Assembly (NCBI RefSeq): GCF_000242255.2 | Contig: NC_017033.1 | Span: forward strand, 2,079,110-2,119,109 | Direction of reading: 5' to 3' | Source: Frateuria aurantia DSM 6220 | Lineage (GTDB): Bacteria > Pseudomonadota > Gammaproteobacteria > Xanthomonadales > Rhodanobacteraceae | Length of the DNA stretch: 40,000 bases | In this document: piece by piece, positions 7,272-32,029 of the stretch | Layout of the letters: each line of letters starts with the position of its first letter | Position numbering within the stretch: the first letter of the stretch is position 1 | Translations under genes and position numbers: made by a program | The notes under the pieces: generated by a model | What the model saw: the letters and a program-made list of their open reading frames with translations, nothing else | Databases searched by the model: none | Told to the model about the DNA's origin: nothing

Positions 7272-8108
7272 ATGACCGCCTTGCAGCTGCCCTGCACCAT
7301 CTTCCAGACCCAGCACCGGATGAATGATTACGGCGCCAGAGATATGCGCTGCGGAGATCTGACCGCAGAACAGCTCAAGCGCCAGTTTCATCTGGAGAAG
7401 ATCTCGATCCAGGTCGATCCCTACACGCTGAAGAAATTACGATCTTCCAGCCCCCTGCAATATGCCCTTGATGACTTCTACAGAAATGAAGAAACCATCA
7501 CGGCAGAACAATGCGCCCGATTGCTGTTCGACGAATTCCGCCGCGAATCCCATGCCTTCGCCTTCTACGGTCCCTATCGGCACCTGATCATTGGAATGAT
7601 CAACCATATGCAATACGGAAATGGCGCCCCTTTCAAGCGTCCATTGCTCGATACGGCCACAAGGGAGCAGATCCTCCATAACACGACATCCAACAGCTCC
7701 TTGCTTAATATCCAGGCGACACTCAAGAACAACATCGACTGGAAACAAGCAATCTATCATGAAGAAAAGAAATGGATGCTGACCAAGGCCGTAAAAGATT
7801 CTCGACTTCCAAAATTCACACATCTCAAACATTACATCAATGGACTAGGGATATCGGTACACGACACATGGTCAACATGCATCACCCTTGAAGACCTCGC
7901 CGTCCACAAAAACACCTATTATGCCACCTTGCATTACAGGATCCAGGATCACTTTGGCCTCGACGAGGCAGACATTTCAGGGCCGATACTATCCAGACTG
8001 GCGATATTTCGCATCTGGTTTGTACTTCAACATTATCAGAGATTCGGATTCAAGCCATACATCACAAGTATGGATGCCAAGCTGGAAATAAGCGAGGCAT
8101 CGAAATGA
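7272..8108 (+). CDS. hypothetical soluble protein, candidate toxin/effector. From memory it resembles the DUF3289 family; this is unverified.
   Basis: 278-aa ORF in a visibly AT-rich stretch. Its stop overlaps the next start (ATGA at 8105-8108). I recall the N-terminus 'LPCTIFQTQHRMNDYGARDMRCGDL' and the C-terminus 'QRFGFKPYIT' from DUF3289-type proteins. A C-terminal fragment of a paralogue lies at 8834-8917. Confidence 0.6.
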   Translation: MTALQLPCTIFQTQHRMNDYGARDMRCGDLTAEQLKRQFHLEKISIQVDPYTLKKLRSSSPLQYALDDFYRNEETITAEQCARLLFDEFRRESHAFAFYGPYRHLIIGMINHMQYGNGAPFKRPLLDTATREQILHNTTSNSSLLNIQATLKNNIDWKQAIYHEEKKWMLTKAVKDSRLPKFTHLKHYINGLGISVHDTWSTCITLEDLAVHKNTYYATLHYRIQDHFGLDEADISGPILSRLAIFRIWFVLQHYQRFGFKPYITSMDAKLEISEASK

Positions 8109-8575
8109 AGTCCAAATCAAAAAAAATGATATGCACAGCCATCTCAAGCCTTGCCCTTGCCACTATCTATCTTGCATGGCTTGAGTGGCGACCTGTTCTC
8201 ATCATCGTCAATCATCAATATCGAAGCTATAGCGATATACTCGTGATGAATATGCCGCTGACGGATACTGCAAAGATAAAATGGTGGCAAAAACACAAGC
8301 TTGAACTGAAGCGACTGTACAACATACCCCAACCTGAACCCGATGGATGGTACGTAGTCAACTTCTGGCTGTTCCATGATGGTTACAAGGAAGATGATGG
8401 TTACGACCGCCTGTGTTTTGATGACATGAAGACCAAGGCGCACTGCATCGACAAGGATCGCGTCTTCTCCGTGCAATGGAGCCAAAACCAAGGCACCGAA
8501 CTTACCGTTCATGACGGCTATTACTTGTATGATAAAAATGGTCGACTTCGAAAATTCAAATTCGAACCCCTTTGA
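8105..8575 (+). CDS. small membrane-anchored protein, candidate immunity partner. From memory it resembles the DUF943 family; this is unverified.
   Basis: 156-aa ORF with a Lys-rich N-terminus followed by one hydrophobic helix ('ICTAISSLALATIYLAWLEW'). It has the motif 'YDRLCFDDMKTK' and is translationally coupled to 7272..8108. Confidence 0.6.
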   Translation: MKSKSKKMICTAISSLALATIYLAWLEWRPVLIIVNHQYRSYSDILVMNMPLTDTAKIKWWQKHKLELKRLYNIPQPEPDGWYVVNFWLFHDGYKEDDGYDRLCFDDMKTKAHCIDKDRVFSVQWSQNQGTELTVHDGYYLYDKNGRLRKFKFEPL

Positions 8576-10184: not shown

Positions 10185-11171
10185 CTATGCCCGAACATCG
10201 TGGCCATCCGAACCCAGAAAGCGTCGATCATCGACTGCGAGGCCTTGGGCAGCTGGCTGTGCTTCTGCTGAGGCTTCGGCCTGCTTGCGGATTGCGATGG
10301 CGGCCTCGACGCGTTCGACCGCGCTGAGCTTACTGCCGCCACTGCGGCCTGCTGGATGGTTTGCATGGGCTGATCCTTGGGTGACGGGCTTGGGGCCCTC
10401 GGCATGGCGATTACGGGCGGTTGTGATGGCGTAGGCGAACGGCTTGGCCTTGTTGCGGAACTCCGCAGCTGTGGCTGCCAGCGTTTCCGGGGTGATGCCC
10501 TCGGCCAGAGCGGCGAGGAGATCCGGATGCTGAGGGTTCACGTCGGAGCAGCCGGCCTTGCGCATCAGCCGGCAGGCTCGAGCGGCTTCGGTGATCGTTG
10601 GGCCGTCGTCGCTTGAATCGCTCGCGCTCGTGCCCGCGTCTATCTCTCTCTCTTGGTTATTGGTTACTGGTTTATGGATACCCGTGTCTTCACATGTGAC
10701 AGGTTGTGACGTCACATCGTCTGTCACGGGACTTGTCACACCTGTCACGCGTGACAACATCTCCCGAAGCTGTGACATGGGCGTATCAAATCCCGCTGTC
10801 ACACCGTGACGCTCGAGCTCAGCAAAGAGATCCGCGCGGCGCTGCCTGGACTTCTTCTGGCGTTCTCGCTCGTTTGCTTTCTTGCTTTGTCGATCCGGTT
10901 CGCCTGCGCGGTAGGACGCAATAATCGAGTCGGCACGATGCTGCCGCCAGAAGCCGTCTACCTGGACGAAGAACTCCTCGAGGATCGCGTCGACCGCAGC
11001 CTTCTCTTCTTCAGTGCGGGCACCAACAAGTCGATATGCCCTGCCCTCTGGAATGCCTTCCTCGGACGAGTAGTAGCGATCCAGCAGCAGCGTGTAGACG
11101 CCATGCTCGAGGATCGTCAGATGGCGGGTGTCCCGGGCGTAATCGCCCAGGTGGCGCTCGTAGTAGTTCAT
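10185..11171 (-). CDS. phage replication-associated protein, DUF1376 (YdaU-like) N-domain
   Basis: The N-terminus 'MNYYERHLGDYARDTRHLTILEHGVYTLLLDRYY' is the DUF1376 signature. The central linker is encoded by a GTGAC/GTCAC repeat cluster. An ATGA overlap links it to the upstream CII-like gene. Confidence 0.8.
   Translation of the reverse strand: MNYYERHLGDYARDTRHLTILEHGVYTLLLDRYYSSEEGIPEGRAYRLVGARTEEEKAAVDAILEEFFVQVDGFWRQHRADSIIASYRAGEPDRQSKKANERERQKKSRQRRADLFAELERHGVTAGFDTPMSQLREMLSRVTGVTSPVTDDVTSQPVTCEDTGIHKPVTNNQEREIDAGTSASDSSDDGPTITEAARACRLMRKAGCSDVNPQHPDLLAALAEGITPETLAATAAEFRNKAKPFAYAITTARNRHAEGPKPVTQGSAHANHPAGRSGGSKLSAVERVEAAIAIRKQAEASAEAQPAAQGLAVDDRRFLGSDGHDVRA
10696..10810. repeat. 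cluster of 10 GTGAC/GTCAC half-sites (iteron-like) inside the replication gene
   Basis: Half-sites start at 10696, 10706, 10711, 10723, 10735, 10744, 10751, 10773, 10798 and 10806. The cluster includes the palindrome GTGACGTCAC (10706-10715). Confidence 0.7.
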
Positions 11172-11614
11172 TGCCTCCGCACCTTCCGCGCGATCGCGGC
11201 GACAAGGCGAACCACGATGTCCTGGACAAGGTGTCCGGCGTGGCTGGTGTCCTTGGACTCGCTGTGTGTGATCACGCCATCGGCCAAGGACTCGCGGACG
11301 GTGCCTGCAAGCCCGCCGCTGCGCTCGACCAGCTCCAGCACCAGGGCGGTCACGTCATCCTCTTTCTGCTGGGCAACTTGGTCCAGCGGCGTCAGGGCAA
11401 AGCCATGGCTGGCAGCCAGCGCGTGCAGGATGCGCACATCGCCGGTGATGCCCATGAGGCGATCAGCCTCCGCCAAGGTCAGGTGGTTGCGGTCATAAGT
11501 CGGATTGACCTTGTGGCGAAGGATGCCGGCTTGCAGACCCAGCCGCAGGGCAAGGGTCTCGGCGCCACCGGGATAGTCATGCACCGTGGCATGGGCAGCA
11601 TCAACGACGTTCAT
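11168..11614 (-). CDS. phage CII-like regulatory protein (Phage_CP76-type, from memory)
   Basis: '...ETLALRLGLQAGILRHKVNPTYDRNHLTLAEADRLMGITGDVRILHALAASHGF' fits the phage CII/CP76 pattern. It lies between the Cro-like gene and the replication gene. The start is uncertain (11614 or 11662). Confidence 0.6.
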   Translation of the reverse strand: MNVVDAAHATVHDYPGGAETLALRLGLQAGILRHKVNPTYDRNHLTLAEADRLMGITGDVRILHALAASHGFALTPLDQVAQQKEDDVTALVLELVERSGGLAGTVRESLADGVITHSESKDTSHAGHLVQDIVVRLVAAIARKVRRQ

Positions 11615-11700
11615 ACGGAAGGGTCTCAAAAAGATGGAGCATCGGTTTTGCTGTACTGGCAAGATGGCAACTCACCACCTTCGCCACTTGTGACCTGCTC

Positions 11701-12204
11701 ATGGATTTCGCTTCGATCACCGGCCTCGCCTCCTCGACGATCTCGACAATCACTGGCGCCAAGGATCTGATCAGCGCTGCCGTCGACATGCGGGACGCTG
11801 CGAAACAGAGCGCGGAGCTCGTCAAGGCCAATGACCTTTTGCTCAAGGCCCAGCAGAGTCTCCTCACGTACACCGGCCAGCTCATGGAGCTGCAGGGCAA
11901 GTACCTCGATGCCTGTGAGGAATTGCGAAAACTGCGAGAAGCCGAAGCGGACCGTGGTCGCTATACGCTCTTCGAGGTCAGCCCCGGGGCTTTCGCTTAT
12001 CGCGCATATGCCACCCCACGACTCAGCACAGCTGGCGAGCCATTGCCGCCGGAGCCCGAGCATTACGTCTGTCAGCCGTGCTATGACCGCGGGATCAAGT
12101 CCGTCTTGCAACGCTTCAACCACTACGGGTCGATCTATCTTCGGTGCTCCATCTGCAAGCAGGACTTGCCCACCGGCCGTACAGAGCCTTTCGGAGGTAT
12201 TTGA
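11701..12204 (+). CDS. hypothetical coiled-coil protein with a C-terminal CxxC...CxxC zinc ribbon
   Basis: 167-aa ORF with high third-position GC and protein-like composition. Its motifs are 'YVCQPCYDRG' and 'LRCSICKQD'. It lies antisense within the Cro-to-CII transcription unit. No clear SD. Confidence 0.55.
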   Translation: MDFASITGLASSTISTITGAKDLISAAVDMRDAAKQSAELVKANDLLLKAQQSLLTYTGQLMELQGKYLDACEELRKLREAEADRGRYTLFEVSPGAFAYRAYATPRLSTAGEPLPPEPEHYVCQPCYDRGIKSVLQRFNHYGSIYLRCSICKQDLPTGRTEPFGGI

Positions 12205-12209
12205 TTGCT

Positions 12210-12413
12210 TCACGCAGCCACCACCTGCCCCGGGCTGGCGGGCCTCGGAGGTGAGATGATCGACTTCACAGACATTCCAGTCAGCTTCGAGACTGCCTGG
12301 ACGTGCTGATACGGGACTCGGCGCCATTGAGAAACAGCCTGACTGCTGATCCCGCAGCAACGAGCGACTTTTGCCGGGCCGCCGGCCCGCTTGATGATGT
12401 CTTTGATGTCCAT
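12210..12413 (-). CDS. Cro/YdaS-like HTH regulator
   Basis: 67 aa from ATG 12413: 'MDIKDIIKRAGGPAKVARCCGISSQAVSQWRRVP', which is the YdaS/Cro-type HTH. It is divergent from the CI-like gene across an 82-bp operator region. Confidence 0.7.
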   Translation of the reverse strand: MDIKDIIKRAGGPAKVARCCGISSQAVSQWRRVPYQHVQAVSKLTGMSVKSIISPPRPASPGQVVAA

Positions 12414-12421
12414 AAAGCTAA

Positions 12422-12485
12422 GGTAAGTCATGCTTACCTTTATTGGCAAGAGATACTTCCGTGCGCCTTGTAAATTTCCCTTACA
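12422..12485. promoter_or_regulatory. tripartite operator region (OR-like)
   Basis: Three 17-bp sites with 6-5-6 geometry: GGTAAGTCATGCTTACC (12422-12438, perfect palindrome), GGCAAGAGATACTTCCG (12444-12460, imperfect) and TGTAAATTTCCCTTACA (12469-12485). Confidence 0.65.
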
Positions 12486-12495
12486 TACTCGCCCC

Positions 12496-13179
12496 ATGAG
12501 CGATCAACTTTGGAAACGAATCAAGGAGGCCAGGACGGCAGCCAAGCTGACTCAGCAGGCTGTTGCTGACGCCTTTGGGATTGATCGAGTCGCCGTCTCT
12601 CTCTGGGAAAGTTCAAGTGATGCCCGGCGAACGAGGCCAGATATCGGCCGGCTAAGGGAGCTGGCCAAAATTACTGGCGTGAAGATGGAGTGGCTGCTAG
12701 GTGCGGATGGAGATCCAATCGGATCCACCCATCTCGTCTCACGAGATGAGACAGACCCGGCGTATGTTCGATTCCCTCTCCTTGAGGGTTACGCAGGCAT
12801 GGGGCCTGGAACATTCATCAGCGACTACCCCGAAGTGGTCAAAGACCTCCGCGTCTCCCGCGAGTGGGTCTCGCAGAAGATGCCAGGCATCCCCCATGAC
12901 GTGATCCGCGTGATCACCGGTCGCGGCGACAGCATGCGCGGGCAGTACAACGATGGGGATCTGATCTTTGTCGACACACGTGTGAAAAGCTTCGATCAGG
13001 ACAGCGCGTACTGTTTCCGCTGGGCCGGCCGCGTGCAGGTGAAGCGCCTGCAGCTCATCAAGCCCGGGATCGTCCGCATCCTCAGCAAGAACCCCGACTA
13101 TGAGTCGATCGATGCTGAGGTCGAGGAGATCGAGATCGGCGGGCGAGCCATTGCGGCTTGGACCTTGAGGGAATTTTGA
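12496..13179 (+). CDS. CI-like prophage repressor (XRE HTH plus S24 LexA-like autopeptidase)
   Basis: 227 aa from ATG 12496. The N-terminal HTH is 'LTQQAVADAFGIDRVAVSLWES'. The C-terminal S24 domain has the Ser motif 'GDSMRG' and the Lys motif 'VQVKRL'. Confidence 0.85.
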   Translation: MSDQLWKRIKEARTAAKLTQQAVADAFGIDRVAVSLWESSSDARRTRPDIGRLRELAKITGVKMEWLLGADGDPIGSTHLVSRDETDPAYVRFPLLEGYAGMGPGTFISDYPEVVKDLRVSREWVSQKMPGIPHDVIRVITGRGDSMRGQYNDGDLIFVDTRVKSFDQDSAYCFRWAGRVQVKRLQLIKPGIVRILSKNPDYESIDAEVEEIEIGGRAIAAWTLREF

Positions 13180-13318
13180 TATGGCAATTGAAAAGAGGCT
13201 TTATCAGCAAAGCCACTATATTGGATACAGTGCTAGTAAATAAAATACACTTACTAAAAATCAACAATTCAATATCCGCACCACCAACATATAAAGCACC
13301 AATCCAAGGCAATAAGAA

Positions 13319-14218
13319 ATGAATGTCAACTATTTTGGTTATTACCTTCACGACCACAAAACCAACAAAGACTACCAGATTGATCTATCAGACCTATTTG
13401 ACTCAATATCAAATAACAAATACCCAGATATAAATAGCAACCTCTACTATAATGGAGATCGAATATACCCACTCCCCTATCTTGGATCAACATACCTGCT
13501 AATTCAATCAAGAGACAATGAGTTAATAAAATTTATTGAAAGGGCAACATTGAAACATGAAGATCTATCGACCAAGCTAGGCACGGCGAATTCAGTCGGA
13601 ATGGCAAGCTACGTTAAGTTCGAGCCTAATTGGATAGCAATAGTTAGCAAGGTTTTGTCGCCAAGGATTCAGGCGCTATCCCATATAATTAATCACTTTA
13701 TTAGATGCCTAGGTAGTGACTTAGAATTTAAGCTCGCCGCATTTAATGATAAGGTGTCAAAAAAAGATATTGTCAAATTAAATCATGTTAGCTCAATATC
13801 CATTGGATTGAACGCCTCCAGCTCGTTAACCAGTAAGTTGGTCGGCACACTTTTAGGCAACGGGTATCCAGCCACCTCTGATATCGGAGGCATAGAAATC
13901 AGACTGAAGCCATCGTCGTCTAAATCAAATTTGAAGAAAGACCTTCAAAATATAGCCATTAATATACCAGACTCTGATATCGATGAATTAGATGCTCGCG
14001 GCAAAATTGAGGCGACTGACAGAATGAGGGATCTATATATTCATGGCTCTGGTGGACTTAAAGATTTCATCAGGCCTAGATACGAACATGAAATACCTTC
14101 ATCTATTACTAAAGCTGCGTCACTAAACACGGCCCTACAAGCAAAAATAAAGGAGTTTAGTGGTGACCCGAATTACATCAAAACTAGCGATCCCCATGCT
14201 ATTGGCCTTAACTGGTAA
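13319..14218 (+). CDS. RexA-like protein (candidate abortive-infection sensor)
   Basis: 299-aa ORF in strongly AT-rich DNA, first gene after CI on the same strand. Its size and several segments resemble lambda RexA as I remember it (for example 'TYLLIQSRDNELIKFI..HEDL..L....SVGMASYVKFE' against 'TFLFTKTNDKSLVQKI..VEDI..L....SLGFPSFLFVE'). Confidence 0.55.
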   Translation: MNVNYFGYYLHDHKTNKDYQIDLSDLFDSISNNKYPDINSNLYYNGDRIYPLPYLGSTYLLIQSRDNELIKFIERATLKHEDLSTKLGTANSVGMASYVKFEPNWIAIVSKVLSPRIQALSHIINHFIRCLGSDLEFKLAAFNDKVSKKDIVKLNHVSSISIGLNASSSLTSKLVGTLLGNGYPATSDIGGIEIRLKPSSSKSNLKKDLQNIAINIPDSDIDELDARGKIEATDRMRDLYIHGSGGLKDFIRPRYEHEIPSSITKAASLNTALQAKIKEFSGDPNYIKTSDPHAIGLNW

Positions 14219-14627
14219 TTCCCTAGCGCTACTTTTGTACATCCTATCCTTTACCAAAAAAGGTGGCGCACTACTCATCACCCTTGGAAAAAACTCCGAT
14301 AATTTTGCAGCAATGTCCGCCAGTGCAGAATTCTCCATGCTTGGCTTTCTATCTGCAGTAATGGCCTTATTTAGCATCATAGGACAATCGGAAGCACTCA
14401 GGCGTTACCGTATTAACGGCTACTTATCCAGCCTCTTGATCACATTCTCCTTCGCGCTACTTGAGACTGCGATCGCCTTCACATCATCGCTAATCCTATT
14501 CTTTAAGCCAGTCAGTAATATATTCATCACGATTGCTTTCATTGCCCTAGTCGGATCATTCGGAATGATGTGTGTCACCTTGATACCATGCATAGGCCTT
14601 CAAATAAGAGCATCGAGCGAAGAATGA
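14160..14627 (+). CDS. RexB-like four-TM membrane protein
   Basis: 155-aa ORF from a GTG start 4-7 nt after AAGGAG, overlapping the 3' end of the previous gene. It has four hydrophobic helices. The segment 'IGQSEALRRYRINGYLSSLLITFSFALLETA' resembles lambda RexB 'IGSRTRRLAKIREYGYMTSVVIVYALSFVELG' (from memory). Confidence 0.55.
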   Translation: MVTRITSKLAIPMLLALTGNSLALLLYILSFTKKGGALLITLGKNSDNFAAMSASAEFSMLGFLSAVMALFSIIGQSEALRRYRINGYLSSLLITFSFALLETAIAFTSSLILFFKPVSNIFITIAFIALVGSFGMMCVTLIPCIGLQIRASSEE

Positions 14628-14739
14628 GGAGCCTCATACTCCTAGAAAACAATCTTAAATTCACGACTTATCAATCAAGGCCATTATTCACTTATTCACA
14701 AGACCCAAGCATTGCCATGTGATTATTTCCCACAAGTAA

Positions 14740-15177
14740 ATACCCAATTCCATCCAACTCCAAGAAGCCACCGCCAAGTTCTTCGATCGCTACATCGCCA
14801 AGGATCTCAACCTGTCCCCAACATGGTCAGATCCAAAGAATACGGATGGGGCAAGCGGGCCAGCCCCGAACTATGACCGAAGTGGTTGCTATGCCCTGCT
14901 CTCCGGCGATGAAGTGATTTACATCGGCCTGGGACGCTCTTGGAAAAAGGGGCGCTACAAAGAGCACGCAATTGGCGTGCGTCTGAGCGCTCATGTCCTG
15001 CTCGTCGACAAGGCCACAAACACCTACATCACGCGAGAAAAGTGGCGCGCGCTGGGTGTCGATTCCCTCATCACCATCGGCTTCCCTCACGAGATGTTTT
15101 TCCTTGCATCGGCGCTTGAGGACTATCTGATCAATGAGCTGAAGCCTGAAGGTAATGGGGTTGGGAAAGGGCGATGA
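14740..15177 (+). pseudogene. GIY-YIG nuclease-domain gene lacking a canonical start codon
   Basis: The frame is open from 14740. It shows 'GCYALLSGDEVIYIGLG...RYKEH..GVRLSAH...LEDYLINELKPEGN', the GIY-YIG, R, H and E/N motifs. The only listed start (GTG 14914) lies inside the GIY-YIG motif, and there is no in-frame ATG, GTG or TTG between 14740 and 14914. Confidence 0.5.
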
Positions 15178-15370
15178 AACTTCTAGCTTATTCGACCAGA
15201 GCTGTAACCACATCAAGTCGTGGGCGAGTGAGGGGTACACCTCAGCCAGACTGATCAATCACCCCTTAGGCGACACAGTACCTCACAAAAAAGACACAAA
15301 GACGAGTTGTATTTAACAATTTGATCACCCCCCTTCAAGAGGAAAGCCTTACCTCACCACCCTAATTAAG

Positions 15371-16291
15371 ATGCATCTATCACCAAACTCAGGATTAAAT
15401 ATCATGTCGGAAAACAATAAATCCACTGCATTCAACGACAAGTACTATGAAGAACATTTCAACCTAGAATTCCTTCCTAAGAAATGCATGCTATGCCAAT
15501 CAGGATCATTAAATAGAAAAGGCCACCTCATACCAAAATTTATATCAACCCAGATAAAGAAGAAGCTTGATATACCCACACTTCGCTACAGTACAGTAAC
15601 CGACCAAGGATTGATTAACGAGGGCAGGCATCGGCAAGACACGCTGGCATTACAGTTTCTGTGTGATAATTGTGAGAATAGGCTCGGACTGGCTGAAAGT
15701 GCCTTTTCGAACAGTCAATTTCGCCCACGTCTTGAAGGCGCCCAAATTCCGGATATGGATCGATTAACTCATGACTTCATAACATCTATCGCATGGAAAT
15801 ATGCGACCTTCAATAGCTTCAAGAAAGTTGGAAGCAACTCTCTTTCAAGAATAGAGCCTGAGATCGAAAAAGCGAGAAAATATTTAGCAGGAGAACAAGA
15901 AAGCAATCCTTTTGATATATACTTCATAAACTTGGAGCGCGTGAGTGAGGTAATGGAGAATACAGACTCAAACAGATTTCTCTACAACATAACTCTCCGC
16001 GATCGAGAAATAAATCCAATCCAACTGATTGGAGACACTTGGTTTCCCGGCACCTCGTCAGGAATTCCAATAATAACAGTTAGGCTAGGACCGCTATGCT
16101 ACATTATAGCTCCAAGCGGTCACTTGCATCTACTCAGATGCATGCCTGAAGAAAGGCCATCGCCACACAACATAGTGGAATTGGAGGTGACGCAAGATAT
16201 TATCAACCTGCTTATATCGCTAGAAGGAGGATTTATTGATGGCATCCCATCAAGAATAAACAATCCAGCCATGGAGTATGAGATGAGATGA
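15371..16291 (+). CDS. hypothetical protein with an N-terminal HNH-like/treble-clef motif (CxxC..H-L-I-P ... CxxCEN)
   Basis: 306-aa AT-rich ORF (alternative start ATG 15404). It carries 'CMLCQSGSLNRKGHLIPKF' and 'LCDNCENRLGLAE'. I could not recognise a family for the remaining ~200 aa. Confidence 0.55.
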   Translation: MHLSPNSGLNIMSENNKSTAFNDKYYEEHFNLEFLPKKCMLCQSGSLNRKGHLIPKFISTQIKKKLDIPTLRYSTVTDQGLINEGRHRQDTLALQFLCDNCENRLGLAESAFSNSQFRPRLEGAQIPDMDRLTHDFITSIAWKYATFNSFKKVGSNSLSRIEPEIEKARKYLAGEQESNPFDIYFINLERVSEVMENTDSNRFLYNITLRDREINPIQLIGDTWFPGTSSGIPIITVRLGPLCYIIAPSGHLHLLRCMPEERPSPHNIVELEVTQDIINLLISLEGGFIDGIPSRINNPAMEYEMR

Positions 16292-16406
16292 GATGCAAAC
16301 TTCTCAATCTCCACAGAGGCCGCATATCACTAGCGACATAATATTCAGCACGCCTGACTTGATGACATCATCAATAAAATTCCTACTCCCAAGTTTTTTT
16401 CATACA

Positions 16407-16643
16407 CTACCCCACGTCTAGATCCGCCCCAAGCCTCAGGGTGGTCCTCGGCTCATCGTAGTCGCCCGTCTCTGAGTCCACAGTCTGGGCAAAGACCAAG
16501 ACAGCGGCCTACTCTTCTTCCAGCCTGTAAGCCCTGCGCACCGCCGCATCCTCCGCCGTCTTCGGTATGGGGGTTCGGCGAGCAGCTGACCGCGTTGCCC
16601 TGTAACCCACGTCTGCACCACATAGATCGTTTCTTTGGCCATA
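16407..16643 (-). pseudogene. small phage-associated gene disrupted by a frameshift and an in-frame TAG
   Basis: ATG 16643 is preceded by AGGAGG. 'MAKETIYVVQTWVTGQRGQLLAEP' then turns Arg-rich. Shifting frame at the C5/G5 run (16569-16573) restores a protein-like sequence, 'PIPKTAEDAAVRRAYRLEEE', then TAG (16509-16511), then 'AAVLVFAQTVDSETGDYDEPRTTLRLGADLDVG'. Confidence 0.45.
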
Positions 16644-16741
16644 GCTCCTCCTGGTGAAGGAAGCATGGGCCGTGCGCGCCTCTCGGTCGGCACAAACATA
16701 ACCATATGCTGAACAATTGTAGGATTACCTTACCCCCCACA

Positions 16742-16781
16742 CGTAAGTTTTACTTGCCTTTAAGTGTAAGTATGGCTTACC
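16742..16781. promoter_or_regulatory. second operator set (OL-like)
   Basis: TGTAAGTATGGCTTACC (16765-16781) and CGTAAGTTTTACTTGCC (16742-16758) share the half-sites and 6-5-6 geometry of the 12422-12485 operators. Confidence 0.6.
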
Positions 16782-17097
16782 TTTATCCCGCGCCGCAGCG
16801 AACCGCTGACCAACGGCCTGGGATCTTCCACAACCTAGCGGGCACCCGAGGATGGCATCGCCATGCGGAGGGCCCAGGGTCTGACCAGCCCGGATATCGG
16901 TCGCCGTGCGCCTTCGCAGAGGGCGCATTGGCATGGCGGTTGGCGCTTGCGCTGACCGAGGCGCTGAACACTCGGAACCCTCCGTGAGACATGTGGAATG
17001 GCCTGTAACGGGGCCGGCCAGCCGCCATCCCAATTCGTCACCCTGCCCGCTCGGGCTATCTCGCGCTTTTCCGCGCACCTTCCACTGGAACCACAAC

Positions 17098-17343
17098 ATG
17101 AGCATTTCTACTCGCATCTATCGCGTCGTCGTCAACGAGGGCGGCGATGACGAAAGCACGCACCTGGTGCGCGCAAACACCCCTGACAACGCTGTAAAGC
17201 ATGTGCTGACGAAGCAGATCAGCGCGAACGTCGCCACCCAGGACGAGCTGGTCGAATTGGCCAGCCAGGGTGTCGCCGTTGAGACGGCAATCGTCCATGA
17301 TAGGCCGGGCAAGCCGGGCCGTCCGAAGCAGAAGGCGGCGTAA
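17098..17343 (+). CDS. hypothetical small phage protein
   Basis: 81 aa from ATG 17098: 'MSISTRIYRVVVNEGGDDESTHLVRANTPDNAVKHVL...'. It is the first plausible ORF after the OL-like operators. Confidence 0.5.
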   Translation: MSISTRIYRVVVNEGGDDESTHLVRANTPDNAVKHVLTKQISANVATQDELVELASQGVAVETAIVHDRPGKPGRPKQKAA

Positions 17344-18273: not shown

Positions 18274-18551
18274 CCACCTACCTTCAGCCGCCGGGCATGT
18301 TCTGCGATCGAGCCGGCGAGAAAAGGGCTGACGAAGAGGAGGCCATCGAAAGGCAAGTTGCCTCTGACCTCTCCGATCCAGACGTCGCCGAGGAATGGCT
18401 GATGAGTTCGATCGACCGCTTCGACGACACCAAGGCAGCCGCCCAGGCACTGGCCCGGGGCGACCTGCACTCGTTCCATAACATCTTCGCCCACTGGGTG
18501 CAGGCGCAGACCGAACTGCGCTTTGAGCAGAAGCTCCGCGGCTTCCACTGA
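18270..18551 (+). CDS. hypothetical phage protein
   Basis: 93-aa ORF with an ATGA overlap to the previous gene and acidic, protein-like composition. Confidence 0.45.
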   Translation: MTTYLQPPGMFCDRAGEKRADEEEAIERQVASDLSDPDVAEEWLMSSIDRFDDTKAAAQALARGDLHSFHNIFAHWVQAQTELRFEQKLRGFH

Positions 18552-18603
18552 TTCAAATCCCCTCCCTTTTGATTGTGCTGGCTCAGGCCGGCAGGAGATC
18601 CCC

Positions 18604-19425
18604 ATGTCTGAAATATCCGTGGCCAGAGCACAGAACCTGGCACAAATTGAGCGTGTAAATGCGCTACTTCCCACCTCGATCGGTGAGGCCATGCAACTCG
18701 CCGAGTTCATGGCTAAGTCGGATCTCCTGCCTCCGCACCTAAAAGGCCGACAGGGCGACTGCCTGCTGGTGGTAATGCAAGCTCAACGCTGGGGTATGGA
18801 CGCCTTATCAGTGGCCCAATGCACGTCAGTTGTTCATGGACGCCTCTGCTACGAGGGCAAGCTGGTTGCGGCAGCCCTGTACTCACAGAAAGCCATCGAT
18901 GGCCGCCTCCACTATGAAATCAGCGGCCATGGGCAGGACGCCTCCATCGTTGTAACTGGAACACCTCGTGGAACTGGTCAGACTCAATCAGTGTCAGGCT
19001 CCGTCCGCAAGTGGCGAACGATCACGATGAAGAAACAGGATGGCGCCCCTCCCAAGCGGGTCGACAATGCCTGGGACACAATCCCGGAAGACATGCTGGT
19101 CTACCGCGGAACGCGGCAATGGGCGCGACGCTATGCGCCTGAGGTGATGCTCGGGGTGCAGACGCCCGATGAAGTTGACGATACACCCATGCAGACCACT
19201 GTGATCCACAGCACGGCTGCATCCTCTCCTGCCATTGAACCGTTGATTCCTTATCCGGAAGAAGAGTTCAGCAAGAACTTCGACACCTGGCTCGGACGCA
19301 TCCAGTGCGGCCGGAACTCCGCCGAAGAGGTGATCGCCAAGCTGCAGACCAAATACACCCTGACGCCCGGTCAGCTGGGCGCCATCCGTGACCTCGAAAC
19401 CACCGAGGCGGAGGTAGTCGAATGA
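18604..19425 (+). CDS. recT: RecT-family single-strand annealing recombinase
   Basis: ATG 18604 has AGGAG upstream. 'AEFMAKSDLLPPHLKGRQGDCLLVVMQAQRWGMDALSVAQ' is the typical RecT core. It is followed by an exonuclease gene. Confidence 0.8.
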   Translation: MSEISVARAQNLAQIERVNALLPTSIGEAMQLAEFMAKSDLLPPHLKGRQGDCLLVVMQAQRWGMDALSVAQCTSVVHGRLCYEGKLVAAALYSQKAIDGRLHYEISGHGQDASIVVTGTPRGTGQTQSVSGSVRKWRTITMKKQDGAPPKRVDNAWDTIPEDMLVYRGTRQWARRYAPEVMLGVQTPDEVDDTPMQTTVIHSTAASSPAIEPLIPYPEEEFSKNFDTWLGRIQCGRNSAEEVIAKLQTKYTLTPGQLGAIRDLETTEAEVVE

Positions 19426-21173
19426 AGATCGTGAAGCTCACCCAGGGCACGCCGGAATGGCATGCCCACCGCGCCCGTCACTTCAACGCCAGCGAGGCCG
19501 GCGTGATGCTGGGCATTTTCCCTGGCGTGAAACGCAGCGACCTGATCAAGGTCCGCGCCACCGGCATCGAAGAGGAGATCTCCACCTTCGTGCAGAAGAT
19601 CTTCGATGACGGTCATCGCTTCGAGGCACTGTGCCGGCCGCTGGCCGAGCTGGTGATCAGCGAGGACCTTTTCCCCTGCGTCGGAGAGGATGGCAAGCTG
19701 TCGGCCAGCTTCGACGGCCTGACGATGATGGAAGATGTGGCCTGGGAGCATAAAACGCTCAACTCGGTGCTGCGCAAGGCATTGCCGGAGGCGGCCCATA
19801 CCGGTGGCACGATTCCGCTGCACGGCGAGGATGTCACCCTGCCGGCGCACTACTGCGCACAGATGGAGCAGCAGATGCTTGTCTCCGGTGCCGATCGTAC
19901 GCTGTTCATGGCATCAGTCTGGGATGGCGACACGATGGTCGAGAGCCGGGCCTGCTGGTATCACTCCGACCCCGAACTGCGCGCACGCATCGTTGCAGGC
20001 TGGGCCCAGCTCGAGCAGGACATCGCGGCCTTCACCTTGGAGCCGGAAGAAGCTGTCGTCGTAGGCAAGGCACCCGACCAGTTGCCCGGCCTGCACATCG
20101 AGGTCACCGGCATGGTGACTGCCTCGAATCTGGAAGCGTTCAAATCTCAGGCGATGGCGGTGCTTGGCGGGATCAACCGGGACCTGCAGACCGATGAAGA
20201 CTTCGCCAATGCGGAAAAAGCAGTCACCTGGGCGAAGGGCGTAGAAGATCGCATCGATGCGGCCAAGGCCAATGCGCTCGCCCAGACCGAAACCATCGAC
20301 ACCCTCTTCCGCACCCTGGACGACGTGAAGGAGGAGACCCGGCGTATCCGCCTCGAGCTCGACAAGATGGTGAAGGCTCGCAAGGTCTCCATCCGGGACG
20401 AGATCGTCGACGCCGGCATCCGTGCAGCAAGAGCCCACTACGATCAGCTGGACTCGAGCCTGGGCGAGTATGCCATCCGTCCCGATCACGCCACGTTTGC
20501 CGTGATCGGTGCATCGATCAAGGGCAAGCGATCGATCAGCAGCATGCGGGACGCAGTCAGTACGGCCGTGGCCGACATCAAGATCGCTGCGAGCCAGTTT
20601 GCCGAAGTCATCCGCGCCAACATCAGCATCCTGAAAAATCAACATCAGCACCAGTCACTGTTTGCCGATCGGGTGATGCTTGCACAAACCAAGTCGCCTG
20701 AAGATCTCCGCAACTTGGTCGCGGCTCGTATCGGCGAGTTCGAACGGCAGGAGACTGAGCGACTGGAGCGGCAGCGCGAGCAGATCCGCAAGGAAGAAGC
20801 CGAGAAGCTGGCCCGCGAGCAGGAGGCGGCCAAGGTGGTGGACGAGACTCCGCCGGCATCTGCAAAAGTCGTCCAGTCCGCACCTCAGGCGCAGAGCCAC
20901 TTTGCGGCATCAACGGACGAGATCCCAGCCAAGGCCGAAAAAGTCGCCCAACCGGCAGGCCCTGCCAAGACCATCAAGCTGGGCGACATCAACGCCTTGA
21001 TCGCACCGCTTTCGATCACTGCAGACGGACTGGCGCAGCTTGGCTTCAACCCTGCAAGCATCGATCGCACCGCCAAGCTGTACCGAGAGGACCAGGTCCT
21101 CGAAATGTTGAGGGCCATGATGGCGCGGATCAAGGATGTCGGCCTGGCAATGTCGGAACGCAAAGCGGCCTGA
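19422..21173 (+). CDS. YqaJ/lambda-exonuclease-like recombination nuclease fused to a long coiled-coil C-terminal region
   Basis: The N-terminus 'MKIVKLTQGTPEWHAHRARHFNASEAG' is the YqaJ signature, and 'YCAQMEQQMLVSG' also fits. About 350 further residues are helical, and I recall them as DUF1351-like (unverified). ATGA overlap with recT. Confidence 0.75.
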   Translation: MKIVKLTQGTPEWHAHRARHFNASEAGVMLGIFPGVKRSDLIKVRATGIEEEISTFVQKIFDDGHRFEALCRPLAELVISEDLFPCVGEDGKLSASFDGLTMMEDVAWEHKTLNSVLRKALPEAAHTGGTIPLHGEDVTLPAHYCAQMEQQMLVSGADRTLFMASVWDGDTMVESRACWYHSDPELRARIVAGWAQLEQDIAAFTLEPEEAVVVGKAPDQLPGLHIEVTGMVTASNLEAFKSQAMAVLGGINRDLQTDEDFANAEKAVTWAKGVEDRIDAAKANALAQTETIDTLFRTLDDVKEETRRIRLELDKMVKARKVSIRDEIVDAGIRAARAHYDQLDSSLGEYAIRPDHATFAVIGASIKGKRSISSMRDAVSTAVADIKIAASQFAEVIRANISILKNQHQHQSLFADRVMLAQTKSPEDLRNLVAARIGEFERQETERLERQREQIRKEEAEKLAREQEAAKVVDETPPASAKVVQSAPQAQSHFAASTDEIPAKAEKVAQPAGPAKTIKLGDINALIAPLSITADGLAQLGFNPASIDRTAKLYREDQVLEMLRAMMARIKDVGLAMSERKAA

Positions 21174-27086: not shown

Positions 27087-27236
27087 GGTGGGGTTCCTTG
27101 AGAGATTGGAACCGCCGCGCACAGTCGCCAAACCATGGGCGGCGGGATGCAACGGGTTGGCGAACCGGTACTCAAGGAACCCGGCAGGCCCGTAGGCCTC
27201 CCATTGCACCCCGCCATAAGCTGGGCATGACGCAAC

Positions 27237-28790: not shown

Positions 28791-29426
28791 TCACTGGCCA
28801 TCCCATTCCGCTACCCAGCGGGCCACGGTTCGAGGATCGGCTATCACCGGGTATTGCTTCACAACGTCTCTACAGAATGCGGCTGTTGAGCGATAACTCA
28901 CTGCGCCACCTCGCCACTCGGCCCACGCAGATCGCACCAAAGGCTTAACCTCGGCATGCGGGCTCGACTCATGCCTTGCCTTTGAACCACTTTTGGCAAC
29001 TGCAGTTCGGGATTGCTTAACGGCATGTACATCGCAGCGCTGGCTCAGTATGGCATCTGCATAAAACCTGGCCTCAATCACGTAATTCCATGCCTCTGTG
29101 GAGTTTCCGAAACGATCTGATCTCAATGCATAGATGCAGCGCATCAAGGAAATCACTCCGTAGTGAATAGGTCCTTCAGGCTGCTCACTCTCCGGCATTG
29201 CCAGAACTTTCTCATGGTATTTGTCCAGACCGGCAGCCGTGACCCCCTGACAACAGACATCAACCAATTTGCTCAGCAATTCACGCTGAAAACTTTCATC
29301 GTCATCATAAAAACCAAGATCAATCAATGACCCAGCAACAGATTCAATGATCTGGTACGCATGACCTGATGGCGTCATGTGCTTGCAAGGTTCAGTAGAA
29401 CAGCCGCTCATTTCTCGCGCACCCAC
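28791..29426 (-). CDS. hypothetical cargo protein
   Basis: 211-aa ORF of lower GC than its flanks. The start is uncertain (GTG 29426, ATG 29411 or ATG 29378). No family recognised. Confidence 0.5.
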   Translation of the reverse strand: MGAREMSGCSTEPCKHMTPSGHAYQIIESVAGSLIDLGFYDDDESFQRELLSKLVDVCCQGVTAAGLDKYHEKVLAMPESEQPEGPIHYGVISLMRCIYALRSDRFGNSTEAWNYVIEARFYADAILSQRCDVHAVKQSRTAVAKSGSKARHESSPHAEVKPLVRSAWAEWRGGAVSYRSTAAFCRDVVKQYPVIADPRTVARWVAEWDGQ

Positions 29427-29589
29427 TGCCGCGCCCTGAAAGGTGCCGCGCCAGCCTGGCAGGGTGTCCAGACGTTCGGGGATCAGCCTAGGCGCGGTGG
29501 CACTAGTCTAGCGCGTCGTGGGACGATATGGGACGGCATGGGACTGTATGCTAGGGTTGGCCATCCAACAGGCTGGTGTGCTGCCGAAA

Positions 29590-30243
29590 ATGACCATGAC
29601 CGATCACCTATCTAGGTTTTCTGTAACGCTCTCCGATGGCACGGATATGACACCACAGCTTCAGCGTTTTGCTGAAATCATAGGATTGGATCGTATCGCA
29701 CCTGAGCGTTACAGCCTGTTGCTACTGCTTGGCTTGTACGGGGCCAAAGAATCAGGAAAACAAAATCCATTTAAAATCATTCAAGAAATAAAGGCATTAG
29801 AAGACCCTCAAATAGCGAGCAATCTAAAACCTGCCACTCAGTTCAAGCACCCCCCACTCAAGGGGCTATGGCACAAGCACTATCTTCAAGACGGGATCGC
29901 ATCTATGGCGCTAAACCTTCGAAAAGGAATGGATAGATATAAGTTGCCATGGGTTGAGCAACGGATAGCCGAAGCCAAGGCTGCCAATGAAAAGCGCTTC
30001 TTTTCAATGGAGGACGCCGCACACATTGCGCGAGATGCAGTCTCAGATAATTGGAAGAGGCTCACTAGAGACTCTGTCCTTACTGGCGAATGGCTCATCT
30101 ATGCGAGATATCAGAATGCAAACTACTACCTGTGTCTAGGCAAGCATCAAAACGATGACGCGGAATTAAGAAGGCAAATCGATGCCATCTGCTTACATGA
30201 ATTTCCCTTCCTATCTCAAATATTAGATCAAACTGCCAATTGA
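29590..30243 (+). CDS. hypothetical cargo protein
   Basis: The ORF is open from 29518. The likely start is ATG 29590 ('MTMTDHLSRF'). It is AT-rich, and the C-terminus reads 'LTGEWLIYARYQNANYYLCLGKH'. No family recognised. Confidence 0.5.
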   Translation: MTMTDHLSRFSVTLSDGTDMTPQLQRFAEIIGLDRIAPERYSLLLLLGLYGAKESGKQNPFKIIQEIKALEDPQIASNLKPATQFKHPPLKGLWHKHYLQDGIASMALNLRKGMDRYKLPWVEQRIAEAKAANEKRFFSMEDAAHIARDAVSDNWKRLTRDSVLTGEWLIYARYQNANYYLCLGKHQNDDAELRRQIDAICLHEFPFLSQILDQTAN

Positions 30244-30434
30244 TCCAGACATAGCTTGTCAACAATACTACCAGCGGCCCCGTACAGGACAACGATGAAA
30301 GCTGCCATTGACCGTGCCGAGGCAGCGCGACGCTGAGGCCTGGCCACTGATAGACTGCCCATGACGTATGGGTATGTCCCTGCTCATGCGCCACGGCGGA
30401 TATGTCCGGGGTGATGACCGGAGCCAGCAACACG

Positions 30435-31073: not shown

Positions 31074-31542
31074 GGGAAAATCGCCCTGTCTGGCGAGCTG
31101 TCTGCGCCGGCCAGCCAGCGATCGGGGCACACGCCGCCGGCAACAGCCTGGGCCCGAGCCCATCCGCAGATCCGCCCCCATCCATTCAGGCCCAGCCACC
31201 CCAGCACCACCAGGACGGCCGCGCTGCAGCTGGCCAGCAGCTCCGATCCACGCAGCACACCCGCCAAGCCTCTGTCGATCGATACGCCGGCACGCTCAAA
31301 TCGGCGGGTCCCTCCTTCAGCTGGTCGCACAGCATGGCGCACAGAACGCCCGCCACGCCCCGCGCGGCATCTGAGCCATGGCAGTGCATGCCTGTCGCTG
31401 CAGGACGGCCCACAGGCGCGGCCAGAGTGATCGACGGATCAGCGCCGCAGGCAGCGGGCCCAGCGATCGCCAGCACCAGCACATGCGGAGTTTCTGGACC
31501 ACTACGCACGCGCACGCGAGCCGGCTGCCCTGGGACCATTTC

Positions 31543-31685
31543 CGTGACGTCACGAAAAAGCCCCGCCTGCCGGTCACGCTCTGTCACGGGATCGTCACGG
31601 TCCCGGCTGCTGCCGGGCACCGCATGTCACGCCAATGTCACGGCCTGTCACGCTCCATCAGAGCCAATGCTCGCCGGCGGTCACA
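31543..31685 (+). repeat. phased GTCACG box array
   Basis: The palindrome CGTGACGTCACG lies at 31543-31554. GTCACG occurs at 31573, 31583 and 31594, and again at 31626, 31637 and 31647 (10-11 bp spacing). GTCACA is at 31680. The hairpin CCCGGC-TGCT-GCCGGG (31602-31617) sits between the two triplets. Confidence 0.8.
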
Positions 31686-31917
31686 AGCCATCCTGCTTGC
31701 ACGCCGACCTGTTCTGCCCAGGCTGGCCGCGACCTATCCGCCTCACGCACCGGCGCGCGACGCGCACCGCTTGAGATGTCCCGATCCGGCCAAGTGGTAT
31801 GGTCGCAAACCAGCGTCGCGGGAACCGGCCCAAACTGGCCGATCACAGGCAGCTGGCGCGATCCAGCACCAACATTCCGTGACCAACATCACAATAAAAG
31901 CCAATTTCAGCCCAAAG

Positions 31918-32029
31918 TGGAACACCTGGAACACCTTGGAACACGTCAGGTGTTCCAAAGTGTGACGCTCATAAATGGCTCAACGGTGCGACCTCCCAGC
32001 CACTGGAACACCTGGAACACCTGGAACAC
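31918..32029. repeat. octamer iteron cluster (TGGAACAC), 7 copies
   Basis: TGGAACAC at 31918, 31927, 31937, 32004, 32013 and 32022, and inverted GTGTTCCA at 31950. Confidence 0.8.

What the first reader, a model, noticed from the sequence alone, without database searches (positions are those of the whole stretch)
13180..16781. AT-rich moron cluster sitting exactly in the lambda 'rex slot' between the CI gene and a second operator set
Seen in the sequence: directly after the CI-like repressor gene (12496-13179, + strand), the DNA changes abruptly from the GC-rich local norm to strongly AT-rich sequence for about 3.2 kb. This stretch carries four same-strand ORFs (13319-14218, 14160-14627, 14740-15177, 15371-16291) and ends at operator-like palindromes (16742-16781) that match the CI/Cro operators. 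Established knowledge: in lambda the order PRM-cI-rexA-rexB-OL/PL places lysogen-expressed exclusion genes in this position. Inference: the block is a horizontally acquired, lysogen-expressed anti-phage cargo slot. Only part of it (the Rex-like pair) looks like anything known. The nuclease-type genes next to it could form an undescribed multi-gene exclusion system.
Basis: partly seen in the sequence, partly recalled or inferred. Interest (0 to 1): 0.78.

Follow-up and report, generated by a model that had tools for sequence, protein, structure and literature searches.

The report
RexAB plus stray cargo beside prophage repressor
A Frateuria aurantia prophage carries distant but clear copies of lambda's RexA/RexB phage-exclusion genes right after its repressor gene, in a known hotspot for foreign genes; two unrelated genes were added there separately, and only one of them, an uncharacterised protein family often found beside defence genes, is worth following up.

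Summary
GC falls from about 0.61 to 0.34-0.44 exactly at the cI stop (13179). The cargo runs to about 16410 and lies between two triple operator sets (GTAAG-N5-CTTAC), as in a mirrored lambda immunity region.

ORF1 and ORF2 are true RexA/RexB homologues: Pfam RexA 2.8e-104, PADLOC RexB 6e-8, four predicted membrane-spanning segments, and the DNA-binding Arg/Lys conserved. rexB is not annotated in GenBank.

The block is a mosaic, not one system.
- ORF3 is a GIY-YIG-like gene of normal GC. It lacks its start codon and ribosome-binding site. Its relatives stand alone in other contexts.
- ORF4 is a separate AT-rich insert. It belongs to a rare family of about 290 aa with a CxxC..H..CxxCE motif. 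Similarity to HNH nucleases is below threshold only. It matches no PADLOC model, and a confident AlphaFold model has no structural match. Relatives often sit beside Lamassu, Shedu, AbiJ, restriction-modification and toxin-antitoxin genes.

Related Luteibacter prophages share cI up to its stop codon and then carry different cargo, so this is a variable slot. That idea is already published for lambdoid phages.

Verdict: a new member of a known kind. The proposed multi-gene exclusion system is not supported. The ORF4 family is a reasonable candidate for a single-gene defence.

The parts
12210..12497 (-). Cro-like repressor gene, divergent from cI
   Evidence: Pfam P22_Cro 9.8e-9 and YdaS_toxin 9.1e-9
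12423..12484 (.). OR: three operator half-palindromes GTAAG-N5-CTTAC at 12423-12437, 12446-12460 and 12470-12484
   Evidence: 0, 2 and 1 mismatches, spaced 23-24 nt
12496..13179 (+). CI-type repressor (HTH_3 plus S24 autopeptidase)
   Evidence: Pfam Peptidase_S24 1.7e-16 and HTH_3 2.6e-10. 58-73% identical to the cI of two Luteibacter prophages, and DNA similarity ends at 13179
13180..13318 (+). AT-rich spacer (GC 0.338), left edge of the cargo; no intrinsic terminator predicted on the + strand
13319..14218 (+). rexA homologue (299 aa)
   Evidence: Pfam RexA 2.8e-104 over 1-236 (348 bits against a cut-off of 25). PADLOC RexA 8.5e-37. 21% identity to lambda RexA, E 3e-13. R227/K229 align with lambda's DNA-binding R219/K221
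14160..14627 (+). rexB homologue (155 aa, four hydrophobic segments); overlaps the rexA 3' end by 59 nt; not annotated in GenBank
   Evidence: PADLOC RexB 6.1e-8. 24% identity to lambda RexB, E 7e-5. Predicted membrane-spanning segments at about 8-32, 55-76, 89-115 and 119-149. AAGGAG lies 5 nt before the GTG. The same overlap and N-terminus are seen in L021
14740..15177 (+). ORF3: GIY-YIG-like open frame of normal GC, with no start codon or ribosome-binding site (ATA where the 79%-identical homologue has ATG). Probably a 5'-clipped remnant. The module shared with L007 is 14754-15232
   Evidence: The top nine Foldseek matches are the GIY-YIG endonuclease R.Eco29kI (best E 0.019, prob 0.91). 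No Pfam or PADLOC hit
15404..16291 (+). ORF4 (295 aa): second AT-rich insert. Rare family of about 290 aa with invariant CxxC..H..P...CxxC(E)..E..SxxWR and a variable C-terminal half. Possible His-Me/HNH-like nuclease, unverified
   Evidence: HNH_5 only below threshold; no PADLOC hit; AF2 pLDDT 78, pTM 0.81; no fold match; phrog_26326 1.8e-13, function unknown
16409..16642 (-). Decayed small backbone gene that marks the right edge of the slot. It is intact in the Luteibacter prophages; here it needs a frameshift and reads through a TAG
16719..16780 (.). OL: three operator sites at 16719-16733, 16743-16757 and 16766-16780

Best explanation
The interval between the cI stop (13179) and a small backbone gene next to OL (about 16410) is the variable cargo slot of a lambda-like prophage of Frateuria aurantia. 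It was filled in at least two, probably three, separate events.

1. An AT-rich rexA-rexB cassette (13180 to about 14753). By homology it should work as in lambda. Both genes are read together with cI from the maintenance promoter in the lysogen. Soluble, DNA-binding RexA senses a superinfecting phage and activates the four-helix inner-membrane protein RexB. RexB collapses the membrane potential and aborts the infection. RexA may also tune the lysis-lysogeny switch.

2. A GIY-YIG-like gene of normal GC (ORF3). Its first five codons, start codon and ribosome-binding site have been replaced, probably at the right-hand junction of the rexAB insertion. It is therefore most likely an untranslated or truncated remnant.

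3. A second AT-rich insert carrying ORF4. This is a stand-alone gene from a rare family whose conserved N-terminal half has a Zn-ribbon-like CxxC/CxxC pair, an invariant His and acidic residues. I infer that it is a nuclease-type single-gene defence or exclusion factor, whose variable C-terminal half recognises the trigger or target.

Shown: composition, gene identities, operators, slot variability, independent distribution of the modules, and loss of the ORF3 start. Inferred: co-transcription with cI, Rex activity in this host, and any nuclease or defence activity of ORF4.
For: - The lambda-like layout and the triple operators are present.
- RexA and RexB are homologous to lambda's, RexB has four predicted membrane-spanning segments, and the DNA-binding residues are conserved.
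- GC and GC3 define three modules.
- The Luteibacter prophages L017 and L018 share cI up to its stop codon. They then carry a bPH_1 gene, or a Zn-ribbon membrane protein plus a SocA/Panacea pair, followed by the same small minus-strand gene and the early-left genes.
- The closest rexAB pair (L021; 45% and 52% identity) is also lower in GC than its flanks and has no ORF3 or ORF4 next to it.
- Similarity between ORF3 and L007 covers only 14754-15232. The window has ATA where L007 has ATG, and no Shine-Dalgarno sequence.
- The ORF3 family has no conserved neighbouring gene across 31 loci.
- ORF4 relatives are solitary genes. They lie beside Lamassu-like and AAA_15/21 genes, Shedu and AbiJ, an m5C methyltransferase and an AlwI restriction enzyme, toxin-antitoxin genes, and an XRE-type helix-turn-helix (HTH) gene.
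- No plus-strand terminator is predicted between cI and the end of ORF4.
- The literature describes Rex function and the cI-to-N hotspot (PMC11077077, PMC8585504).
Against: - There are no expression or phenotype data.
- RexA and RexB are only 21-24% identical to lambda's. Even in lambda the trigger is poorly understood, and exclusion may be a side effect of Rex expression (PMC11077077).
- The nuclease assignment for ORF4 is weak. Pfam HNH_5 scores are only below threshold: 5 of 40 relatives (best E 4e-4), and 17 bits for the family consensus against a cut-off of 27.5. hhalign against a genuine HNH_5 protein gave probability 1.3%. There is no PDB or BFVD fold match.
- The association of ORF4 relatives with defence islands rests on about 15 contexts read by eye, not on a statistical enrichment.
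- ORF3 could still be translated from a non-canonical start or from the GTG at 14914.
Confidence: 0.75

Rival explanations
1. One reading: rexA, rexB, ORF3 and ORF4 form one four-gene exclusion system in which the nucleases act as effectors downstream of Rex sensing.
For: The genes share a strand, follow one another closely downstream of cI, and no terminator is predicted between them. Multi-effector defence operons do exist (general knowledge).
Against: There are three compositional modules. The closest rexAB pair (L021) and the closest ORF3 homologue (L007) each lack the other genes. The ORF3 and ORF4 families are solitary elsewhere and share no conserved neighbour. ORF3 has no start codon here. 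The only other Rex-like pair found here, apart from lambda itself, is L021.
Confidence: 0.05
2. ORF3 and ORF4 are selfish free-standing homing-endonuclease genes (GIY-YIG type and HNH type). They invaded an intergenic hotspot and have no benefit for the lysogen.
For: Both show nuclease-like motifs and sit as single genes of foreign or mosaic composition between conserved phage genes. Free-standing GIY-YIG and HNH endonucleases are common in phages (general knowledge; PMC5714182).
Against: Neither has a recognisable homing-type DNA-binding domain, and neither hits the Pfam homing families. ORF4 relatives are almost absent from the phage collections: tblastn against INPHARED found nothing with ORF4 itself and one fragment with a relative. 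They occur instead on plasmids and chromosomal islands, including archaeal ones, beside defence and toxin-antitoxin genes. ORF3 relatives lie next to Gabija-like genes, an integrase and IS elements, not inside conserved phage genes.
Confidence: 0.12
3. The Rex pair here serves mainly the prophage's own switch, with RexA biasing towards lytic growth after induction. Exclusion of other phages is incidental or absent.
For: Lambda RexA binds DNA non-specifically and stabilises the lytic state independently of RexB. The authors question whether exclusion is the true function (PMC11077077). The DNA-binding residues are conserved here.
Against: rexB is retained, intact, and has a strong ribosome-binding site. 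The cassette moves horizontally as a pair (L021), like a defence module. The two roles are not mutually exclusive.
Confidence: 0.2
4. ORF4 is not a nuclease at all. It would be a zinc-binding regulatory or other lysogenic-conversion protein unrelated to phage defence.
For: No family or fold match reaches significance. Some contexts are uninformative.
Against: The residues C28, C31, H41, P44, D79, C87, C90, E91 and E98 are invariant or nearly so across relatives only 20-35% identical. The 'SHIIPKF' block resembles the HNH catalytic strand (my reading of the motif). UniProt names H8L1U2 an HNH endonuclease 5 domain protein. Neighbours are repeatedly defence or toxin-antitoxin genes.
Confidence: 0.25

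Closest known systems
Bacteriophage lambda RexA/RexB abortive-infection (exclusion) system (Pfam PF15969; PADLOC Rex)
   Same: The gene order is cI-rexA-rexB on one strand between OR and OL. The proteins are of similar size (299 and 155 aa here, 279 and 144 aa in lambda). RexA matches the Pfam model end to end. RexB is a small protein with four predicted membrane-spanning segments. The counterparts of R219/K221 are conserved.
   Different: Identity is only 21% (RexA) and 24% (RexB). rexB overlaps rexA by 59 nt instead of following it. The host is a GC-rich member of the order Xanthomonadales (my own taxonomic placement, not looked up here), while the cassette is AT-rich. Two extra unrelated genes separate rexB from OL. 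Function here is untested.
Rex-like pairs of actinobacteriophages (Sbash gp30/gp31, CarolAnn, Toast; PMC11077077)
   Same: These are distant RexA/RexB homologues next to a CI-like repressor in temperate phages outside the enterobacteria.
   Different: Those were tested for exclusion and DNA binding; this pair was not. I made no direct sequence comparison with them.
BstA and other cargo in the cI-to-N hotspot of lambdoid prophages (PMC8585504; Degnan 2007 as cited there)
   Same: Defence-type cargo sits immediately downstream of the repressor and presumably shares its promoter. The slot differs between related phages.
   Different: The proteins are unrelated. Here the slot holds several stacked inserts.
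GIY-YIG nucleases with an N-terminal extension, e.g. the restriction enzyme R.Eco29kI (PDB 3NIC/3MX4)
   Same: The ORF3 family keeps the motif Y..(I)YIG, Arg, His, Glu and Asn. Its AF2 model's best nine PDB matches are all R.Eco29kI.
   Different: The match is weak (E 0.019, TM 0.48) and there is no Pfam hit. No partner methyltransferase is present. The start codon is lost in this copy.
HNH_5 / His-Me finger nucleases (PF14279; group 1 and 8 of PMC5714182)
   Same: The motif CxxC-x9-(S/G)H(I/V)(I/V)P ... CxxC(E/D) resembles a zinc-stabilised HNH motif. UniProt labels the protein an HNH_5 domain protein.
   Different: Scores are below Pfam's cut-off. There is a roughly 35-residue insert between the His strand and the second CxxC, and Glu stands where HNH has Asn or His. 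hhalign and Foldseek give no support.

Membership tests
RexAB (lambda-type exclusion system) | RexA protein matches the RexA family model above the curated cut-off | tested here: met
   PF15969: 348.3 bits against a cut-off of 25, model positions 1-235 of 235. PADLOC RexA 8.5e-37. BLASTP against lambda RexA E 3e-13.
RexAB (lambda-type exclusion system) | Partner RexB: a small inner-membrane protein with four transmembrane helices, encoded directly after rexA | tested here: met
   PADLOC RexB 6.1e-8. BLASTP against lambda RexB 7e-5. Four hydrophobic segments. The gene starts inside the rexA 3' end and has an AAGGAG ribosome-binding site. No Pfam model hit.
RexAB (lambda-type exclusion system) | Located downstream of cI on the same strand, between OR and OL of a temperate phage | tested here: met
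RexAB (lambda-type exclusion system) | RexA DNA-binding residues (lambda R219/K221) present | tested here: met
   R227 and K229 align with them in the pairwise alignment. Their role is taken from PMC11077077.
RexAB (lambda-type exclusion system) | Expressed with cI from the maintenance promoter in the lysogen | not testable with these tools
   Indirect only: no plus-strand terminator in the cI-rexA spacer.
RexAB (lambda-type exclusion system) | RexA-RexB interaction, membrane depolarisation and exclusion of superinfecting phage | not testable with these tools
   Needs experiments.
GIY-YIG nuclease superfamily (ORF3) | Conserved GIY...YIG, Arg, His/Tyr, Glu and Asn motif | tested here: met
   Invariant Y51, Y61-x-G63, R81, H85, E127 and N139 in five homologues. 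The motif definition is from my own knowledge.
GIY-YIG nuclease superfamily (ORF3) | Match to a curated GIY-YIG family model | tested here: not met
   No Pfam, NCBIfam, PHROG or PADLOC hit at E <= 0.1.
GIY-YIG nuclease superfamily (ORF3) | GIY-YIG fold | tested here: inconclusive
   The AF2 model has pLDDT 70. The top nine Foldseek PDB hits are all R.Eco29kI, but the best is E 0.019, prob 0.91, TM 0.48.
GIY-YIG nuclease superfamily (ORF3) | Intact, translatable gene | tested here: not met
   There is no ATG, GTG or TTG before codon 59. ATA stands at the homologue's ATG, and there is no Shine-Dalgarno sequence. Similarity to L007 starts at codon 6.
HNH / His-Me finger nucleases (ORF4) | Match to an HNH family model above its cut-off | tested here: not met
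   The window protein has no hit. Five of 40 relatives hit HNH_5, best E 4e-4. The family consensus scores 17 bits against a cut-off of 27.5 and covers only the first CxxC..H half.
HNH / His-Me finger nucleases (ORF4) | beta-beta-alpha-metal core with a catalytic His and metal ligands | tested here: inconclusive
   H41, D79, E91 and E98 plus two CxxC pairs are invariant or nearly so. The AF2 model places short strands at 40-41 and 82-83 and a helix from 88. Foldseek finds no match in PDB or BFVD. hhalign against a genuine HNH_5 protein gives probability 1.3%.
Any catalogued anti-phage defence system (ORF3, ORF4) | Match to a PADLOC-DB v2.0.0 model | tested here: not met
   The window proteins, 40 relatives and the family consensus give no significant hit. 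Catalogues released after 2023 were not available.

The most novel reading that the evidence does not exclude
The ORF4 family is an undescribed single-gene anti-phage defence family. Its members are about 290 aa, with a zinc-ribbon/His-Me-like N-terminal half, a variable C-terminal half, and a confident AlphaFold fold that matches nothing in PDB or BFVD. It spreads between prophage immunity slots, plasmids and defence islands of bacteria and archaea. In this prophage it would be stacked behind RexAB to broaden the lysogen's protection.
Probability: 0.3. Interest if true: 0.6.

Novelty: new member of a known kind. Interest (0 to 1): 0.35.

Why it matters
- It extends lambda-type RexAB, with canonical synteny, to a GC-rich soil gammaproteobacterium, and shows the cassette moving as an AT-rich unit. 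This gives a very distant natural variant for comparative work on how Rex functions, which is still unclear.
- It corrects a public annotation, in which rexB is missing.
- Three related prophages document the cI-to-OL interval as a stacking site for cargo.
- The most useful product is a concrete, testable candidate: the ORF4 family. It has about 140 clusters at 50% identity, is absent from PADLOC 2023, and recurs beside Lamassu, Shedu, AbiJ, restriction-modification and toxin-antitoxin genes.

None of this overturns current understanding.

Tried and rejected
- Megablast of 12100-17100 against INPHARED phages found no match. tblastn of ORF4 against phages found none. tblastn of RexA against phages found only one hit, at 25% identity.
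- The word-indexed protein search found only the protein itself for ORF4, and only one relative for RexA.
- The search for related loci with the ORF4 alignments failed because no stretch was conserved enough. With RexA, or with RexA plus P0147, it found nothing in viral or metagenome contigs. With the ORF3 alignment it found nothing in viral contigs.
- PDB sequence searches with the full-length profile and the N-domain profile of ORF4 found nothing meaningful.
- I asked whether the HNH_5 gene next to an ORF3 homologue (L045) is an ORF4 relative. It is not.
- I looked for a conserved partner gene of the ORF3 family. There is none across 31 loci.
- I rejected 15371 as the ORF4 start and 14196 as the rexB start, based on ribosome-binding sites and the N-termini of homologues.
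- No paper mentions these accession numbers.

Full report
**Source and layout.** Exact protein matches place the window in Frateuria aurantia DSM 6220. It is a prophage that ends at an integrase (32110-33348, minus strand) beside tRNA-Leu (33651-33735). Around the finding the order is lambda's, mirrored:
- a CII-like gene (11168-11662, minus) and a Cro-like gene (12210-12497, minus);
- three operators at OR;
- a CI repressor with HTH_3 and S24 peptidase domains (12496-13179, plus);
- the cargo;
- three operators at OL;
- a plus-strand early operon with RecT (18523-19425) and a YqaJ-type exonuclease (19422-21173).

The operator motif GTAAG-N5-CTTAC, allowing up to 2 mismatches, occurs 14 times in the window against 4.8 expected, and none of 100 shuffles reached 14. 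Six of these sites form two triplets spaced 23-24 nt, at 12423/12446/12470 and at 16719/16743/16766.

Four details need correcting.
- The tract is interrupted by 14754-15232, which has GC 0.547.
- The frame 14740-15177 has no start codon.
- The AT-rich DNA stops at about 16410, some 300 nt before OL.
- ORF4 probably starts at 15404.

**RexA and RexB.** ORF1 matches Pfam RexA end to end (2.8e-104) and PADLOC RexA (8.5e-37). It aligns with lambda RexA at 21% identity (E 3e-13). R227 and K229 stand opposite lambda R219 and K221, the residues whose double mutation abolishes DNA binding (PMC11077077).

ORF2 matches PADLOC RexB (6.1e-8) and lambda RexB (24% identity, E 7e-5). It has four hydrophobic segments, like lambda RexB. 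Its GTG at 14160 follows an AAGGAG by 5 nt. The closest other pair (metagenome contig L021; RexA 45% and RexB 52% identical) shows the same overlap of rexB with the end of rexA.

rexB is not annotated in GenBank. The protein ids run from RexA straight to ORF3, and gene callers place short minus-strand ORFs there instead.

Every sequence-testable criterion for Rex membership is met. Expression and activity cannot be tested here.

**A variable slot, already a known concept.** Two Luteibacter prophages have cI proteins 58-73% identical to this one. Their DNA similarity to the window ends at 13179. Downstream, one carries a single bPH_1 gene. The other carries a zinc-ribbon/tRNA_anti-like membrane protein and a SocA/Panacea pair. 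Both then have a small minus-strand gene followed by the early-left genes.

The window has a decayed copy of that small gene (about 16409-16642), which needs a frameshift and reads through a TAG. It marks the right edge of the slot.

The literature already describes the cI-to-N interval of lambdoid phages as a mosaic hotspot that holds rexAB in lambda and bstA in BTP1 (PMC8585504).

**ORF3.** Five homologues of 141-157 aa share the residues expected of a GIY-YIG nuclease. An AlphaFold model (pLDDT 70) has R.Eco29kI as its top nine PDB matches, but only weakly (E 0.019). No curated family model hits it.

The 79%-identical homologue on L007 is also a GC-rich gene flanked by different AT-rich DNA. 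Nucleotide similarity spans only 14754-15232. The first five codons and the ribosome-binding site differ, and the window has ATA where L007 has ATG. NCBI therefore calls only an 87-aa fragment, starting at a GTG inside the GIY motif.

Across 31 loci the family has no conserved neighbouring gene. It sits after a Gabija-like pair, an integrase, an IS110 element and other genes.

ORF3 is best read as a stand-alone accessory nuclease gene that lost its 5' end here, probably at the rexAB junction.

**ORF4.** The word-indexed search found only the protein itself. Exhaustive HMMER found 140 cluster representatives, mostly 250-320 aa and 20-35% identical.

The alignment shows C28, C31, H41, P44, D79, C87, C90, E91, E98, S128, W131 and R132 invariant or nearly so, and a poorly conserved C-terminal half.

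Evidence for a nuclease is thin.
- HNH_5 hits are below threshold: 5 of 40 relatives, and 17 bits for the consensus against a cut-off of 27.5.
- UniProt labels the protein an HNH_5 domain protein.
- The motif resembles HNH, which is my own reading.

Several results argue against it or are neutral.
- hhalign against a genuine HNH_5 protein gives probability 1.3%.
- There is no PDB sequence hit.
- A confident model (pLDDT 78, pTM 0.81) has no Foldseek match in PDB or BFVD.
- No PADLOC model matches.
- The PHROG hit, phrog_26326, has unknown function.

Contexts of relatives:
- solitary genes on bacterial and archaeal plasmids and on a phage-plasmid;
- between a Lamassu-like cluster and an AAA_15/21 gene in Pseudomonas fluorescens;
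- beside Shedu (SduA_C) and AbiJ;
- directly after an m5C methyltransferase next to an AlwI restriction enzyme;
- near RelE, VapC or SocA genes;
- 78 nt downstream of an XRE-type HTH gene, in the closest relative.

This pattern is typical of defence cargo, but I did not quantify it.

**One system or several?** The four genes make three compositional modules. Each module is found elsewhere without the others, and ORF3 lacks a start codon. I therefore reject the integrated four-gene system as the best reading (confidence 0.05). I favour serial, independent insertions into a hotspot.

No plus-strand intrinsic terminator is predicted anywhere between cI and the end of ORF4. Read-through from the repressor promoter is therefore plausible but unproven.

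**Verdict.** RexAB here is a new, very divergent member of a known system in its canonical place. The slot concept is known. The proposed multi-gene system is not supported. The ORF4 family is a fair candidate for an uncatalogued single-gene defence (probability about 0.3). Interest: 0.35.

Noticed in passing
window 14160-14627 (+): The rexB homologue is missing from the public annotation. GenBank protein ids jump from AFC86351 (RexA) to AFC86352 (ORF3 fragment), and gene calls on L008 and L009 put two short minus-strand ORFs there instead.
   Followed up: yes
window about 16409-16642 (-): A small backbone gene next to OL is intact in the Luteibacter prophages (L018:8903-9160, L017:8393-8668; no Pfam family). 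In the window it needs a frameshift after ..AEPPY and contains an in-frame TAG, so it is probably a pseudogene. Its function is unknown.
   Followed up: partly
window 7272-8575 (+): A second low-GC island (minimum 0.435) carries a DUF3289 gene (5.6e-134) followed by a DUF943 membrane-protein gene (1.5e-64). This looks like another foreign two-gene cargo in the prophage.
   Followed up: partly
window 27135-27221 (-): Rfam C4 antisense RNA (84.7 bits, E 1.9e-15). From my own knowledge this is the P1/P7-type immunity RNA, unexpected in a prophage that also has a lambda-type cI/cro switch.
   Followed up: no
window 31260-31309 (+) and 29434-29498 (-): Rfam abiF RNA motif (42.8 bits) and int-alpA RNA motif (41.9 bits) lie near the integrase end. 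The adjacent low-GC stretch 29000-30300 and the ORFs 29518-30243 and 31378-31965 have no Pfam hit. This may be a further cargo site.
   Followed up: partly
L054 6001-6909; L056 665-1567; L023 7947-8870: ORF4-family genes lie between a Lamassu-like cluster (LmuB_C) and an AAA_15/21 gene, beside Shedu (SduA_C) and AbiJ, and directly after an m5C methyltransferase next to an AlwI restriction enzyme.
   Followed up: partly
L032 6971-7444; L044 7001-7429: ORF3-family (GIY-YIG-like) genes lie immediately downstream of a GajA/GajB-like pair (AAA_15/OLD-TOPRIM plus a UvrD helicase) and of a phage-type integrase.
   Followed up: partly
L021 519-1836: The closest rexAB pair (metagenome contig) also has lower GC (0.47-0.53) than its flanks (0.57-0.60), which suggests the cassette moves between GC-rich hosts.
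   Followed up: partly
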